12,738 nt of DNA, taken from positions 1 through 12,738 of IMG/VR virus record IMGVR_UViG_2802429224_000008, one strand, 5' to 3'. The position numbers are program-made. This document shows positions 1 to 3,000 of the stretch, piece by piece. How positions within the stretch are numbered: position 1 is the stretch's first letter; every line of letters starts with the position of its first letter. Source of the stretch: a virus. Taxonomy: Duplodnaviria; Heunggongvirae; Uroviricota; Caudoviricetes.

Positions 1-3000
1 ATGGCACGAAAAACCACCCCACTAACTATTACGGAGATCAAAAACGCACGACCAGGGGAAAAGGAATACACCCTGCAGGATGGCGGAGGATTATTTCTTC
101 TGGTGAAGCCCTCCGGATCAAAAATCTGGCGTTTTACGTACTACCGCCCGGCAGATAAAAAACGGACTATTATCAGCCTTGGATCGCTAAATGATGTTTC
201 CCTATCTGATGCCAGAGAGCGACGGAATGAATACAGGTCACTCATAGCAAAGGGAACTGACCCACAGGACTACGAACGCCGGAAACGTGAAGCAGAGAGC
301 AGGAAAAAGGGCAACACGTTCGAAAAAGTTGCCTCGGACTGGTACGAGATGAAAAAAGGCCAAAATCTGGCTTACAACACGATTAAGGATATCTGGCGAT
401 CCCTGGAAAAATACGTATTCCCGTACATCGGAAACACGCCAATAGATACCCTCACCGCTCGCCGCTTTGTTGAGATACTCACACCCATTAAAGCACGCGG
501 CAACCTGGAAACTCTGAAACGCGTTTTACAACGCATCAATGAAGTGATGGATTTTGCTGCCAACAGTGGGTTGATTGACATCAACACCGCCGCGAACGTC
601 CGCAAGGCATTCCCCTCACCCACCAAAAAGCACATGCCAACCATCCGACCGGAACAGCTACCGCAGCTAATGCACGATTTATCGGTCGCCAGCATAGAAC
701 GGCAAACCAGATTGCTGATCGAGTGGCAACTGCTGACCGTAGCACGCCCAGCCGAAGCAGCCGCCGCACGCTGGGAAGAAATAGATCTCGATGCCGAAAC
801 CTGGACGATTCCAGCCGGACGCATGAAGATGCGCCGTGACCATGTGATCCCCCTTTGCGGTCAGGCTATGGCTGTACTGGAAACCATGAAACCAATCAGC
901 GCACACAGGGAACATGTTTTTCCCAGCCTTAAAAATCCAATGCTACCAATGAGCAGCCAGACCGCTAACGCTGCATTACGCCGGATGGGTTACGCTGGTG
1001 TGCTGGTGTCTCACGGATTACGCGCCATATTCAGTACAGCAGCGAACGAGGAAGGATTCGAGCCGGACGTAATCGAGGCCGCACTCGCACACGTGGACAC
1101 AAACGAGGTAAGGCGGGCATATAACCGAAGTAACTACCTGGAAAAACGTGTAGTGCTTATGCGCTGGTGGGGTGAATTTGTGGAAGCCGCAGCAACCGGA
1201 GTGACCATAGCCAGTGGTAAAAGGGGTATCCGTGCAGTGTAACTGTACAAAAAACCAGTACAACCAGTGCAAACCATGCTAAACCATCGTATAATCACCA
1301 CATACAGAGAGACCCGACTCTTGAAATTCAAGGAGTTATCCGAGTGTTTTTCAATGAAAAGGTATCCCCTGCCTATGGTGAAGGCCTTCAGTTGGCCTTA
1401 ATGGCAAATCGTGAATTCTGGTCAACGTACGATCCGGAAGACAAATCAACAGCCCCCACAAAACACGAGGTAGTCAGTTTTTTGCGCTCGCGTGGCGCAT
1501 CGAAAAATCTGGCTGAAAGCATCGACAAGGTGCTGAGGCCCACCAACCTTAAATGCGGTGGGCGACCTAAGAAGTGGAAACGGTAATCACAATAGCGGCC
1601 CCTTGCGGTCGCTATTTTTTTGCAGAAAGAAAAGCGTAATCAATGAGATAAAAAACAGTGGGTACCGTTTTAAAACGGTGGGTACTGTTTTTCCCGCCCT
1701 GCCCTGTTTTACCGTATTTATCACCGGAATACGCCGGATTAACGAGGTAAAACATAGTGGAAACAATCAGAAAAATTCTTACCCGTCAGGAAGTAAAAAA
1801 TATTCTGCGCATCAAGGCAGACAGTTCGCTACAGGACATGATCAACGCCGGAAAATTCCCGAAAGGCTTCAAAATCGGTCTGCGTCGTGTTGGCTGGTAT
1901 GAAGATGAAGTGCTGGCCTGGCTGAAAGAGCGCGAGGAAGAAGCGCGCGGAACGGCTGCGTAATGGTGTGAGGCGTAACGCGATGAACATAACAAAAAGC
2001 GCCCCGTTGCCGGAGCGCCCTTGCGAACAATTAACCTGCTGCGAAAAAAATGGATCAGTGCAGGGGAATTATATCAACCGTGGTCGAAATGACTATAGTT
2101 GCAGGATAACAGGCAAAACAAAGGCCACCCGCTACGGTGGCCCTTCAACACTAATTGCGCGTTATCCCCAACGCAAGAGAGCTGATTACTATGCCGTGAT
2201 TACATCCGGTTGGCAATGTGATCAGTGTGCTGGCTTGCTGGTGGGCTATTCCTGCTCTTTAACATCGCCATGCCGCGATGTTTTCCAGGTATGCGACCCC
2301 ATTTTTGTGCGCCTGTACTCTTTAAGGAATTTCTCAAGGATAAACGCACAGGGCGCGAATCTGTCTGACCCATGCTCGTACGCTATCTTTCTGCGCTGTC
2401 TTTTCCGTGCCGGTGATGGTGTATTGGTTGATTCTTTGTTGGTCATGGCGCTGCCCTGTAAAACGATGCACCGTAGTTCCTCACACCACGGCGCTGGTGA
2501 TGGTTACTCCTGCTCTTTGGCCTTGCGCCGCTGGCGGCGTTTGATCTCATCAAGGATTTTTCTTGGTAAGAAGCCTGCTGGTTTATTCTCTGGTAGAGAA
2601 AGTTTGTTATCGGTCTGCTTTTCAGTCATACATCAGCCTTTAGGTTCAATGCCGCGTCGCTTTAGTTCGGCGCGCCCCAACTCTTTAAGCCAGTTGGCTA
2701 GGCTTATGCCGTCGCTCTGCGCTTCTTTGTCGAATTGCTCTTTTAGCTCTGGAGAAATTCGCATTCTGAATTGTGGAGATTGCCCATCACCCTTAGGACT
2801 TTTATCGCGTTTGATTGTTGACAAGTGGCCACCTATTGAATTAGCCTTTTCATTGTTAGGTGACCACCTTAACACGGAAGCACTTAAAAAAGCAAAGCCC
2901 GAAGGCGCTAGGAACACCAACGGGCTTCTAACCACCAACGATAGCAAGATTATCGAGGCAGCTATGAGAAATCATACCACACACCCGCAAGGGCGGGACT

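What the first reader, a model, noticed from the sequence alone, without database searches (positions are those of the whole stretch)
2112..2824. Minus-strand operon: RHH DNA-binding protein followed by two paralogous small basic peptides
Between alpA and the replication operon, transcribed toward alpA, lie an RHH gene (2764 or 2824 to 2633), a 43-aa peptide (2628-2503) and a 66-aa paralog (2446-2246), ending at a minus-strand terminator (2112-2142). The two peptides share an N-terminus, an RQRRK basic block and identical KEQE-stop ends, indicating a local duplication. The antisense-like composition of the plus-strand frame supports minus-strand coding. The RHH protein is divergent from the Icd-like/replication operon, the position expected for an island repressor; an RHH antitoxin with a small toxin is the alternative.
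Basis: partly seen in the sequence, partly recalled or inferred. Interest (0 to 1): 0.55.

Follow-up and report, generated by a model that had tools for sequence, protein, structure and literature searches.

The report
Arc-like repressor operon of a satellite
The leftward genes are real: an Arc-type repressor with its own operator pair, plus two small conserved proteins, forming the likely "off switch" of a phage-satellite island whose family was thought to have no repressor, and the whole operon lies antisense inside a long conserved reading frame on the other strand.

Summary
The three minus-strand ORFs exist, with small corrections. The RHH gene is 2824-2633 (TTG start, 63 aa). The middle peptide is 41 aa (2629-2504), not 43. 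The third is 66 aa (2446-2246), and the terminator hairpin is 2145-2120.

The RHH protein is Arc-like by profile and by predicted fold. Directly after its start codon lie two 12-bp palindromes, GTGGCCACC and GTGACCACC, 35 bp apart. They bracket a conserved rightward promoter for the Icd-like/replication operon. In 11 islands from nine genera the operator core co-varies with one beta-strand residue. It is therefore very probably the island's immunity repressor. The model satellite EcCICFT073 carries a YlcI/YnfO-type RHH in the same slot.

The "two paralogous peptides" reading is weak. The last 14 codons of P41 are a recombination junction shared with YlcI-type cassettes. P66 is an orphan family (phrog_21027). 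Both show purifying selection. A toxin-antitoxin reading is unlikely.

It is a 395-codon ORF (1983-3170) running from alpA into Icd-like, the same layout as phage P4 eta/kil. It is open across the antisense operon in nearly all relatives. Two candidate antisense small RNAs flank the operon.

The parts
2633..2824 (-). RHH (Arc-like) repressor gene, 63 aa, TTG start at 2824, TGA stop at 2635-2633
   Evidence: ORF. Homologous starts M-S-T. Matches phrog_228 'Arc-like repressor' at 4.6e-7 and Pfam HicB (the RHH part) at 4.7e-4, just under the cut-off. The profile hits P22 Arc in the PDB at E=0.008. AF2 model pLDDT 84; top Foldseek hits are all Arc, TM 0.91 and rmsd 1.0 A. pN/pS 0.48.
2504..2629 (-). 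P41: 41-aa basic peptide in frame with RHH (TGA-TGT-ATG junction); the last 14 codons are shared with YlcI/YnfO-type repressors
   Evidence: pN/pS is 0.29 in its own frame against 0.47 in the antisense wobble frame; differences by codon position are .188/.133/.354. The DNA breakpoint is shown.
2468..2494 (-). Hairpin in the 57-nt spacer between P41 and P66. It is terminator-like in the window, but the U-run is not conserved elsewhere.
2246..2446 (-). P66: 66-aa protein of orphan family phrog_21027, with an N-terminal Arg-rich block and the conserved core ERFAPCAF.LE.FLKEYRRTKMG
   Evidence: pN/pS of the core is 0.33. AF2 confidence is low, predicting two helices. No PDB, RHH-profile or PADLOC relation.
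2110..2145 (-). Intrinsic terminator of the leftward operon
   Evidence: Conserved in relatives including EcCICFT073.
2823..2834 (.). Operator O1 (core GTGGCCACC, 2825-2833). It abuts the RHH start codon and fills the spacer of the rightward promoter.
2858..2869 (.). Operator O2 (AGGTG-AC-CACCT; core GTGACCACC, 2860-2868), 35 bp from O1
2818..2847 (+). Candidate rightward promoter for Icd-like/replication genes: -35 TTGACA at 2818-2823 (overlaps RHH codons 1-3), 18-nt spacer, -10 TAGCCT at 2842-2847
   Evidence: Read from the sequence. A TAnnnT hexamer sits at the same distance in all 11 islands listed. The consensus scan did not call it.
1983..3170 (+). 395-codon ORF (ATG 1983, GAGG Shine-Dalgarno at 1970-1973, 20 nt after the alpA stop) that runs antisense through P66, P41 and RHH and ends as Icd-like; laid out like P4 eta
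2964..3170 (+). Icd-like protein (68 aa), nested at the C-terminal end of the long ORF; resembles P4 Kil in sequence and in its nested position
   Evidence: NCBIfam NF033153 at 1e-19. The P4 Kil sequence and nesting were compared by eye only.
2886..2979 (-). Candidate cis-antisense small RNA against the Icd-like ribosome-binding site and start codon: extended -10 TGgTATGAT at 2979-2971, start near 2964, two hairpins, terminator stem 2927-2895 plus a U-run to 2886
   Evidence: No Rfam match.
1988..2095 (-). Candidate small RNA antisense to the first ~25 codons of the long plus ORF: promoter 2095-2068 (TAGTCA-16-TGaTATAAT), terminator 2022-1995
1757..1963 (+). alpA (activator/excisionase family); context gene
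   Evidence: Pfam Phage_AlpA at 4.5e-8.

Best explanation
Setting. The window is a Gram-negative phage-inducible chromosomal island (PICI) of the EcCICFT073 type: int, alpA, Icd-like, DUF4222, primase, SSB, an Ogr/Delta-like activator and a small terminase.

Core claim. Region 2112-2824 is the island's leftward maintenance operon. Its first gene encodes a 63-aa Arc-type ribbon-helix-helix (RHH) repressor. Dimers of it are proposed to bind two 12-bp palindromes, O1 (2823-2834) and O2 (2858-2869), which sit 35 bp apart. O1 fills the spacer of a rightward promoter (TTGACA-18-TAGCCT) and O2 lies just downstream of it. Binding would therefore shut off the Icd-like/replication operon and probably the repressor's own promoter. 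Different islands carry different repressor/operator specificities, which amounts to immunity types.

The two small proteins. P41 is translationally coupled to the repressor gene. P66 follows after a 57-nt spacer. Both are co-transcribed, so they would be made in the quiescent state. Both carry an Arg-rich block. Their role is unknown; my guess is small nucleic-acid-binding accessory factors occupying a cargo slot downstream of the repressor.

The opposite strand. The whole operon lies antisense inside a 395-codon ORF that starts 20 nt after alpA and ends as Icd-like. By analogy with P4 eta/kil, AlpA-driven transcripts would be kept translated, and so protected from Rho, all the way into the replication genes, bypassing the repressor-controlled promoter. 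These transcripts would also collide with, and pair with, the repressor mRNA.

Shown here: the ORFs, the fold, the operator pairs and their co-variation, purifying selection, the mosaic junction, and conservation of the open plus frame. Inferred: actual DNA binding, repression, the promoters, the role of translation in avoiding Rho, and any function of P41 and P66.
For: Island type. PHROG and Pfam hits of the neighbouring genes. EcCICFT073 has the same layout, with a YlcI/YnfO RHH gene plus a short P66 on the minus strand.

RHH identity. The family is conserved across Enterobacterales and Pasteurella at the same position.

Operators.
- The exact GTGRCCACCT motif occurs only at 2825 and 2860. 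With up to 1 mismatch there are 7 matches against 1.2 expected, and 0 of 200 shuffles reach 7.
- In 11 islands O1 follows the start codon directly. O2 is 35 bp away in 8 of them, and the two 9-mers are identical in 6.
- Identical operators occur only between islands that share the beta-strand motif. FRMR goes with GTGG(C/T)CACC; FHMR with GTGTACACC in E. coli, Salmonella and Edwardsiella; FQIR with GTACGTACG or GTGCGTACC.
- The variable residue aligns with Arc Asn11, which contacts bases (the contact itself is established knowledge of the Arc-operator structure 1PAR).

P41 and P66. pN/pS is 0.29 for P41 and 0.33 for the P66 core, each lowest in its own frame. P41 is kept as an ORF in E. coli, Citrobacter, Salmonella and a metagenome contig, and in two different operon positions.

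Plus ORF.
- Open for 315-819 codons in 75 of 84 loci. In all 75 distinct regions a long ORF covers the antisense of P66 and the RHH gene.
- Over the trio, one antisense frame has 0 stops against 6-14 in the other two, in four divergent loci.
- Under the null model, P(open) is 0.03-0.2 per locus and about 6e-5 for the whole window ORF.
- Intergenic lengths 131, 134, 140 and 143 all keep the frame.
- P4 eta/kil has the same nested layout. The mechanism is summarised in PMC10111431.

Literature. [quoted passage not shown]
Against: - No binding, transcript or phenotype data exist here.
- The leftward promoter could not be identified convincingly, and the consensus scan did not call the rightward one either.
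- The Pfam and NCBIfam scores of the RHH protein are below the curated cut-offs.
- pN/pS in the wobble-coincident antisense frame is only slightly higher than in the sense frame, so selection tests cannot cleanly separate the strands.
- P41 is absent from most related islands, and one frameshifted copy exists.
- P66 looks universal among the IMG/VR loci only because those loci were fetched with P66. The Proteus, Dickeya, Pasteurella and Edwardsiella islands lack it.
- The plus frame is not open over the RHH gene in Dickeya and Edwardsiella.
- Published work describes Gram-negative PICIs as unidirectionally transcribed.
Confidence: 0.72

Rival explanations
1. Type II toxin-antitoxin module: the RHH protein is an antitoxin (NCBI labels the family 'HicB family antitoxin') and P41 or P66 is a small toxin that stabilises the island.
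For: RHH antitoxins are common, and RHH antitoxins such as AtaR, CopA-SO and TacA appear among the fold hits. Sources label homologues as HicB antitoxin. The gene order, with the small partner downstream, fits.
Against: The 63-aa protein is only the RHH domain. The HicB match covers profile positions 18-48 of 51 and falls below the cut-off. No HicA gene or other toxin family is present. The RHH gene occurs with no downstream partner in the Proteus, Dickeya, Pasteurella and Klebsiella-phage elements. Its operators sit on the replication-operon promoter rather than only on its own. The best structural and profile matches are to Arc, a phage repressor.
Confidence: 0.06
2. Only the RHH gene is real. 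P41 and P66 are shadow ORFs: by-products of the open, translated plus-strand eta-like ORF and of cassette junctions, with no protein function.
For: All three ORFs share one frame whose wobble positions coincide with the plus frame, so ORFs and low pN/pS can be inherited from the other strand. P41 straddles a recombination junction and is missing from most islands. The P66 N-terminal half shows no preference for its own frame (0.51 against 0.44). The AF2 model of P66 is poor. Neither has any family with a known function.
Against: pN/pS is lowest in the own frame for P41 (0.29 against 0.47) and for the P66 core (0.33 against 0.57). P41 shows the pos2<pos1<pos3 pattern expected of a minus-strand gene. 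P41 travels with its own ribosome-binding site into three different upstream contexts and always keeps its ATG and frame. The basic tail is kept through synonymous changes in Citrobacter and Salmonella. The P66 core motif is retained in very divergent third genes. The plus-frame translation over this stretch is rich in Cys, Ser, Leu and Arg and hits no family.
Confidence: 0.13
3. The RHH protein is only a local autoregulator of a small accessory (moron) operon and does not control island replication. The island is kept silent simply because AlpA is absent.
For: Published work explains induction through AlpA alone. The slot downstream of the RHH gene holds variable cargo, including a 451-aa gene in Edwardsiella and hydrophobic peptides in L035 and L043.
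Against: O1 occupies the spacer of a conserved TTGACA/TAnnnT rightward promoter whose -35 overlaps the RHH start codon in every island examined. RHH-only islands have no cargo to regulate.
Confidence: 0.09

Closest known systems
Arc repressor of Salmonella phage P22 (RHH; immI region)
   Same: It is the best sequence-profile and fold match, at 27% identity and rmsd 1.0 A. Both are small and share the PQF-x-x-R beta-strand motif. Both control promoters in a compact regulatory region.
   Different: Arc binds one 21-bp operator as a tetramer and regulates ant. Here there are two separate 12-bp palindromes 35 bp apart, a conserved 16-residue N-terminal arm, and the target is a satellite replication operon.
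Phage P4 immunity region: nested eta/kil genes with CI RNA
   Same: A Kil/Icd-like ORF forms the C-terminal end of a long ORF that begins next to the alpA/vis homologue, upstream of the primase. A role of translation in preventing termination is documented for P4 (summarised in PMC10111431).
   Different: P4 immunity is an RNA: the C4 and isrK models hit P4 but nothing in this window. Here the body of the long ORF carries an antisense protein-repressor operon instead.
EcCICFT073, the model Gram-negative PICI
   Same: Same gene order. It has a minus-strand RHH gene plus a short P66 between alpA and Icd-like, inside a 428-codon plus ORF, with the same two downstream terminators and the candidate small-RNA promoter.
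   Different: Its RHH protein is the 59-aa YlcI/YnfO type with operator GTGGGCCACAC, and it has no P41. Published descriptions treat the island as unidirectional with no known repressor.
YlcI/YnfO family (NF041551, DUF3950)
   Same: An alternative cassette in the same slot. RHH-like by local alignment (shuffle P=0.0013). Its C-terminal 14 residues and the 3' flank are identical to the end of P41.
   Different: The window RHH protein scores 12.9 bits against a cut-off of 30, so it is not a member. YlcI/YnfO has no described function.
Convergent-promoter switches of P2/186-type phages, and the lambda cI-rexAB operon
   Same: A repressor operon faces the lytic/replication transcript, and accessory genes are co-transcribed with the repressor (recalled from memory; an analogy only).
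   Different: Here the overlap covers the entire repressor operon (about 700 nt), and the opposing strand is an open reading frame.

Membership tests
Ribbon-helix-helix (Arc/MetJ/CopG) superfamily | Sequence-profile match to RHH families | tested here: met
   phrog_228 at 4.6e-7. The family profile hits Arc 1b28/1myl at E=0.008 over residues 11-57. Pfam Arc (0.14) and HicB (4.7e-4) are below their cut-offs.
Ribbon-helix-helix (Arc/MetJ/CopG) superfamily | Beta-alpha-alpha fold | tested here: met
   The AF2 model (pLDDT 84) has helices at 25-37 and 42-56. The extended segment 18-24 is not scored as a strand in a monomer model. Top Foldseek hits are Arc, AmrZ, CopG and NikA, with TM 0.91 to Arc.
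Ribbon-helix-helix (Arc/MetJ/CopG) superfamily | Dimer that inserts a two-stranded sheet into repeated or palindromic operator sites | tested here: inconclusive
   Paired palindromes that co-vary with a beta-strand residue fit this. Dimerisation and binding cannot be tested with these tools.
HicB antitoxin (the label NCBI gives to homologues) | N-terminal HicB domain that neutralises HicA, and an adjacent hicA gene | tested here: not met
   The protein is 63 aa. Only the C-terminal RHH part of the Pfam model aligns, at 20.5 bits against a cut-off of 21. No HicA-like gene is present in any locus.
YlcI/YnfO family (NF041551) | Score above the NCBIfam cut-off | tested here: not met
   12.9 bits against 30. 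Sister cassettes are annotated as members.
Type II toxin-antitoxin pair | Antitoxin always partnered with a toxin gene of a recognisable family | tested here: not met
   The RHH gene occurs alone in several genera. P41 and P66 have no toxin or defence hits.
P4-type eta/kil nested genes | A Kil/Icd-like ORF is the end of a longer ORF that starts next to the vis/alpA gene | tested here: met
   Window ORF 1983-3170 with Icd-like at 2964-3170. P4 ORF 8812-8168 ends in Kil. The layout is conserved in relatives.
P4-type eta/kil nested genes | CI (C4-type) immunity RNA and its seqA target inside the long ORF | tested here: not met
   C4, isrK and c4-a1b1 hit P4. Nothing hits in the window, even at E<=10 over 2780-3050.
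P4-type eta/kil nested genes | Translation of the long ORF prevents Rho-dependent termination | not testable with these tools
   The only support is indirect: the frame is kept open.
Gram-negative PICI (EcCICFT073 type) | int, alpA, replication module with primase, and helper-derived packaging genes, all co-oriented | tested here: met
   The layout is collinear with EcCICFT073. The small terminase gene (8832-9416) is on the minus strand.
Local alignment score 31 against a shuffled mean of 21.9 +/- 3.9, P=0.03. P41 against the YlcI tail gives P<3e-4.

The most novel reading that the evidence does not exclude
The RHH protein, together with its YlcI/YnfO-type alternatives, is the missing master repressor of Gram-negative PICIs and is diversified into immunity types. 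It works inside a two-strand switch. The repressor operon is embedded antisense in a translated eta-like leader ORF that lets AlpA-driven transcripts bypass repression. Two previously undescribed cis-antisense small RNAs gate translation of the nested eta-like and Icd/Kil-like ORFs. P41 and P66 are Arg-rich RNA-binding micro-proteins that act on these RNAs.
Probability: 0.3. Interest if true: 0.85.

Novelty: new variant of a known kind. Interest (0 to 1): 0.68.

Why it matters
Gram-negative PICIs are widespread phage satellites that move virulence and defence genes. The founding paper describes them as transcribed in one direction only, and says that whether they have a global repressor is unclear (PMC6092414).

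This analysis points to a testable repressor gene and its operators. They are present in the model island EcCICFT073 and in islands from E. coli to Pasteurella, with specificities that change together in protein and DNA.

It also shows that the zone between alpA and the replication genes is read on both strands. There is a long open frame arranged like P4 eta/kil on one strand. The repressor operon and two candidate antisense RNAs lie on the other. That gives a concrete model for how these islands stay silent and switch on.

There is also a practical annotation point. Gene callers choose one strand or the other here, and the RHH family is mislabelled as a HicB antitoxin.

Tried and rejected
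- Rfam, over the whole window at E<=1 and over 2780-3050 at E<=10: only chance hits. No C4 or isrK, although both models hit P4.
- PADLOC, Pfam and NCBIfam for P41 and P66: nothing.
- P66 structure: AF2 pLDDT 62, too poor for a fold search. Its profile finds nothing in the PDB and has no relation to the RHH profile.
- The plus ORF as a known protein: only its last ~90 residues match any family (Icd-like, phrog_6196). The PHROG label 'transcriptional repressor' traces to the old P4 'cI gene product' annotation.
- The genome-contig scan with P66 returned only one locus.
- pN/pS cannot cleanly separate the two strands, because the wobble positions coincide.
- sRNA-1: the terminator is invariant, so there is no covariation evidence.
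- The leftward promoter of the RHH gene could not be assigned. Only weak candidates lie between O2 and O1, and read-through from the anti-icd RNA promoter remains possible.
- The hairpin at 2494-2468 as a conserved attenuator: the stem is roughly conserved, but the U-run is not.
- Literature searches found nothing linking PICIs with an RHH repressor, an antisense RNA, or YlcI/YnfO function.
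Full report
WHAT IS IN THE SEQUENCE

The three minus-strand ORFs are present.
- RHH gene. The stop is at 2635-2633. All homologues begin M-S-T at the position of TTG 2824, so the protein is 63 aa. The alternative ATG 2764 would delete the beta-strand.
- P41. The second ORF runs from ATG 2629 to TAA 2506-2504 and is 41 aa.
- P66. The third ORF is 2446-2246, 66 aa, as stated.
- Terminator. A hairpin at 2145-2120 followed by GTTTTG is called on the minus strand.
- Frame. 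All three ORFs are in one reading frame. RHH and P41 are separated only by TGA-TGT.

CONTEXT

The window is a phage satellite of the Gram-negative PICI type. It carries an integrase (1-1242), alpA (1757-1963), an Icd-like gene (2964-3170), a DUF4222 gene, a primase (3927-6050), SSB, an Ogr/Delta-like activator and a small terminase.

The model island EcCICFT073 has the same order. In the current RefSeq annotation it has a minus-strand 'YlcI/YnfO family protein' and a hypothetical protein between alpA and Icd-like. [quoted passage not shown] AlpA is an activator, and its overexpression alone is enough for island replication (PMC6092414).

THE RHH PROTEIN

It matches phrog_228 'Arc-like repressor' at 4.6e-7. 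Pfam HicB and Arc and NCBIfam YlcI/YnfO all fall below their cut-offs.

Fifty-five homologue clusters occur across Enterobacterales, and sources mostly label them 'HicB family antitoxin'. A profile built from 34 of them hits the P22 Arc repressor in the PDB at E=0.008, over residues 11-57 against Arc 2-48. An AlphaFold model built from that alignment has pLDDT 84. Its best Foldseek matches are all Arc structures (TM 0.91, rmsd 1.0 A, 27% identity), followed by AmrZ, CopG, NikA and RHH antitoxins.

OPERATORS

Directly after the complement of the start codon lies GTGGCCACC (2825-2833). Thirty-five bp further on lies GTGACCACC (2860-2868). Each sits inside a 12-bp palindrome of the form AGGTG-NN-CACCT. 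The 10-mer GTGRCCACCT occurs exactly only at these two places. With up to one mismatch there are 7 matches against 1.2 expected, and no shuffle out of 200 reaches 7.

The same architecture is found in 11 islands. They come from E. coli, Shigella, Citrobacter, Salmonella, a Klebsiella phage record, Proteus, Dickeya, Edwardsiella and Pasteurella.
- The spacing is 35 bp in 8 of them.
- The two 9-mers are identical in 6.
- The core differs between islands.
- Identical operators are seen only between islands with the same beta-strand motif:
  - F-R-M-R with GTGG(C/T)CACC (window, Proteus, Dickeya)
  - F-H-M-R with GTGTACACC (E. coli EC12, Salmonella, Edwardsiella)
  - F-Q-I-R with GTACGTACG or GTGCGTACC (Citrobacter, Klebsiella phage)

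The variable residue aligns with Arc Asn11, a base-contacting residue in the Arc-operator complex. I take this co-variation as strong indirect evidence that the protein binds these sites.

A perfect -35 hexamer, TTGACA (2818-2823), lies on the plus strand and overlaps RHH codons 1-3. This also explains the conserved M-S-T start. Eighteen nt downstream is TAGCCT, and a TAnnnT hexamer sits at the same place in all 11 islands. O1 therefore fills the spacer of a rightward promoter for Icd-like and the replication genes, and O2 follows it.

YlcI-type islands, including EcCICFT073, show the same plan with their own island-specific repeats: TTGAC(G/A), then O1, a -10 element, then O2.

I could not assign the leftward promoter.

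P41 AND P66

P66 is a full-length match to phrog_21027, a family of unknown function, at 7e-32. It has 44 homologue clusters, nearly all from E. coli. The N-terminal half is variable and the core ERFAPCAF.LE.FLKEYRRTKMG is conserved. pN/pS of the core is 0.33 in its own frame and 0.57 in the antisense wobble frame. The AF2 model is poor (pLDDT 62, two helices). No relation to PDB entries, to the RHH profile or to defence families was found.

P41 has only five clusters, one of them frameshifted. It is nevertheless kept as an ORF in E. coli, Citrobacter, Salmonella and a metagenome contig. pN/pS is 0.29 (pS 0.50), and differences by codon position are .188/.133/.354. It always follows an upstream ORF that ends ...EPKG-TGA, with a 3-nt gap. 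That upstream ORF can be the RHH gene, a short P66 variant (L043, L049, L051), or a membrane-like ORF (L091).

Its last 14 residues, EIKRRQRRKAKEQE, are identical to the end of the 59-aa YlcI/YnfO repressor of sister islands. At DNA level, identity to those islands rises from none to about 100% exactly at that point and continues through the 57-nt spacer. P41 therefore straddles the conserved junction at which alternative repressor cassettes are exchanged.

The cassettes seen in this slot are the 59-aa, 65-aa and 101-aa YlcI types, Arc-like RHH with or without P41, and variants with extra hydrophobic peptides.

The claimed paralogy of P41 and P66 rests on a weak local score (P=0.03) that does not involve the cited motifs. 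I do not regard a local duplication as shown. Both proteins carry an Arg-rich block (KRRQRRK and RKRQRRK). That they bind nucleic acid is my speculation.

In the Proteus, Dickeya, Pasteurella and Klebsiella-phage elements the RHH gene stands alone. In Edwardsiella it is followed by a 451-aa gene. The RHH gene is therefore the conserved core, and the downstream slot holds variable cargo. One caveat: the 80 IMG/VR loci were fetched with P66, so its presence in them is by construction.

THE PLUS STRAND

The frame that ends as Icd-like is stop-free for 414 codons. Its first ATG is at 1983, with a GAGG Shine-Dalgarno sequence, 20 nt after the alpA stop. Its third codon positions coincide with those of the minus-strand genes.

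How surprising is this in the window?
- Given the minus-strand proteins, the frame would be open by chance with P = 0.52, 0.82 and 0.26 over the three genes.
- Over the non-coding parts, P = 0.011, 0.56 and 0.09.
- The joint probability is about 6e-5.

How conserved is it?
- In 75 of 84 related loci the fused frame is open for 315-819 codons.
- In all 75 distinct regions a long ORF covers the antisense of P66 and the RHH gene. It starts at or over the stop of the upstream gene and ends overlapping the next gene.
- In four divergent trios, one antisense frame has 0 stops against 6-14 in the other two.
- Null P(open) is 0.03-0.2 per locus.
- Intergenic lengths of 131, 134, 140 and 143 nt all preserve the frame. 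Islands without the fusion have 130, 133 or 139 nt.
- The frame is also open in Proteus (276 codons) and Pasteurella (333 codons), but not in Dickeya or Edwardsiella.

The plus-frame translation over the antisense stretch is rich in Cys, Ser, Leu and Arg and matches no family. Only the last ~90 residues match, as Icd-like and phrog_6196. In EcCICFT073 the ORF is 428 codons and, by eye, begins with a Bro-N-like segment.

Phage P4 has the same nested layout. The eta ORF (8812-8168) starts at the end of vis, the alpA homologue. Its last 65 residues are Kil, which resembles Icd-like by eye. In P4, translation of eta lets transcripts from the upstream late promoter escape immunity-dependent termination (Forti et al. 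2002, as summarised in PMC10111431).

P4's immunity RNA (C4 model) and its target (isrK and c4-a1b1 models) are found in P4 but not in this window. This lineage therefore appears to have a protein-repressor cassette, on the opposite strand, where P4 has its RNA immunity.

MODEL

In the quiescent state the leftward operon makes the RHH protein, P41 and P66. The RHH protein occupies O1 and O2 and closes the rightward promoter.

On helper-phage infection AlpA activates its own promoter (published). The transcript is translated continuously through the 395-codon ORF into Icd-like and on to the primase. This would bypass the repressed promoter and oppose the repressor transcript.

Only the sequence features are shown here. 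Binding, repression, the promoters and the role of translation are all inferred.

RIVAL READINGS

- A toxin-antitoxin pair (0.06). This fails on the missing HicB domain, the absence of any toxin family, and the RHH-only islands.
- Shadow ORFs (0.13). This remains possible for P41 and P66, because selection tests cannot fully separate strands whose wobble positions coincide. The own-frame pN/pS values, the codon-position pattern, and the mobility of P41 with its own ribosome-binding site all argue against it.
- A purely local regulator of the cargo operon (0.09). This is hard to square with O1 sitting in the spacer of the replication-operon promoter, and with RHH-only islands that have no cargo to regulate.

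SIDE FINDINGS

Two candidate minus-strand small RNAs flank the operon.

The first has an extended -10 (TGgTATGAT, 2979-2971) inside Icd-like codons 3-5 and a start near the Icd-like ATG. It has two hairpins and a terminator (stem 2927-2895, U-run to 2886), and it is fully complementary to the Icd-like ribosome-binding site. In 15 divergent loci the minus-strand RNA folds 5-19 kcal/mol better than its complement (sum -494 against -326 kcal/mol, with 69 G-U pairs). The alifold energy is -15.0 against -2.3.

The second has promoter 2095-2068 and terminator 2022-1995, and is antisense to the first ~25 codons of the long ORF. Its -10 and 3' half are conserved in 23 distinct loci across several contexts, but there is no covariation.

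Neither is in Rfam.

NOVELTY

An Arc-like repressor is a known kind of protein, and the P4 eta/kil layout is known. I found no description of the following in the searchable literature:
- an RHH repressor with immunity-type operators in Gram-negative PICIs;
- its placement antisense inside the eta-like ORF;
- the flanking antisense RNAs.

I rate the finding a new variant of a known kind.

Noticed in passing
window 2886-2979, minus strand: Candidate ~80-nt cis-antisense RNA covering the Icd-like Shine-Dalgarno sequence and start codon. It has an extended -10 (TGgTATGAT), two hairpins and an intrinsic terminator. In 15 loci from E. coli to Pasteurella the minus-strand RNA folds much better than its complement (69 G-U pairs). 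No Rfam family matches. With the Icd-like/Kil-type division inhibitor it would look like a type I toxin-antitoxin pair or an immunity RNA.
   Followed up: partly
window 1988-2095, minus strand: Candidate ~73-nt small RNA between the operon terminator and alpA. The promoter is TAGTCA-16-TGaTATAAT and the terminator is 2022-1995. It is antisense to codons 2-26 of the long plus ORF. The -10 and the 3' half are conserved in 23 distinct loci with four different neighbouring sequences. The terminator is invariant, so there is no covariation.
   Followed up: partly
window 1658-1691, plus strand, upstream of alpA: Two direct copies of GTGGGTACYGTTTT, 20 bp apart, lie between a plus-strand terminator (1591-1616) and the alpA start. 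They may be an AlpA or helper-activator binding site in the alpA promoter.
   Followed up: no
L094 2718-4073 (Edwardsiella); L035 2752-2895; L043 3322-3486: The slot downstream of the repressor gene carries variable cargo: a 451-aa gene in Edwardsiella, and 47-54-aa hydrophobic peptides (MQQKIYWFGSLFLYVFLLGNC...) in some E. coli islands. This suggests a lysogeny-expressed moron or defence slot.
   Followed up: no
L004, L052 and many other loci, ~2638-2943: The commonest YlcI/YnfO cassette is 101 aa. It equals the 59-aa form plus a 42-residue in-frame insert (AEGSGENPLVSSLDALAQVEKIGVKAAEEIGQLVTVAREEL) placed just before the shared QRRKAKEQE tail.
   Followed up: no
L086 (P4) 8168-8584; phrog_6196 and phrog_1743: The PHROG and RefSeq label 'transcriptional repressor' for Icd-like/Kil-type proteins comes from the old P4 'cI gene product' ORF. 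P4 immunity is now known to be an RNA, so the label is misleading.
   Followed up: partly
L084 2360-3097 (Klebsiella phage P12620-1); L088 2460-3623; L090 2445-3635: Annotators disagree on which strand codes here. The phage record annotates only the long antisense ORF and omits the RHH gene. Other gene calls list both overlapping genes. RefSeq PGAP lists only the minus-strand genes.
   Followed up: partly
window 8832-9416 (minus strand) and 7282-7569 (plus strand): A lambda Nu1-type small terminase gene lies on the opposite strand to the rest of the island, and there is an Ogr/Delta-like zinc-finger activator. Both are probably part of the helper-exploitation module.
   Followed up: no
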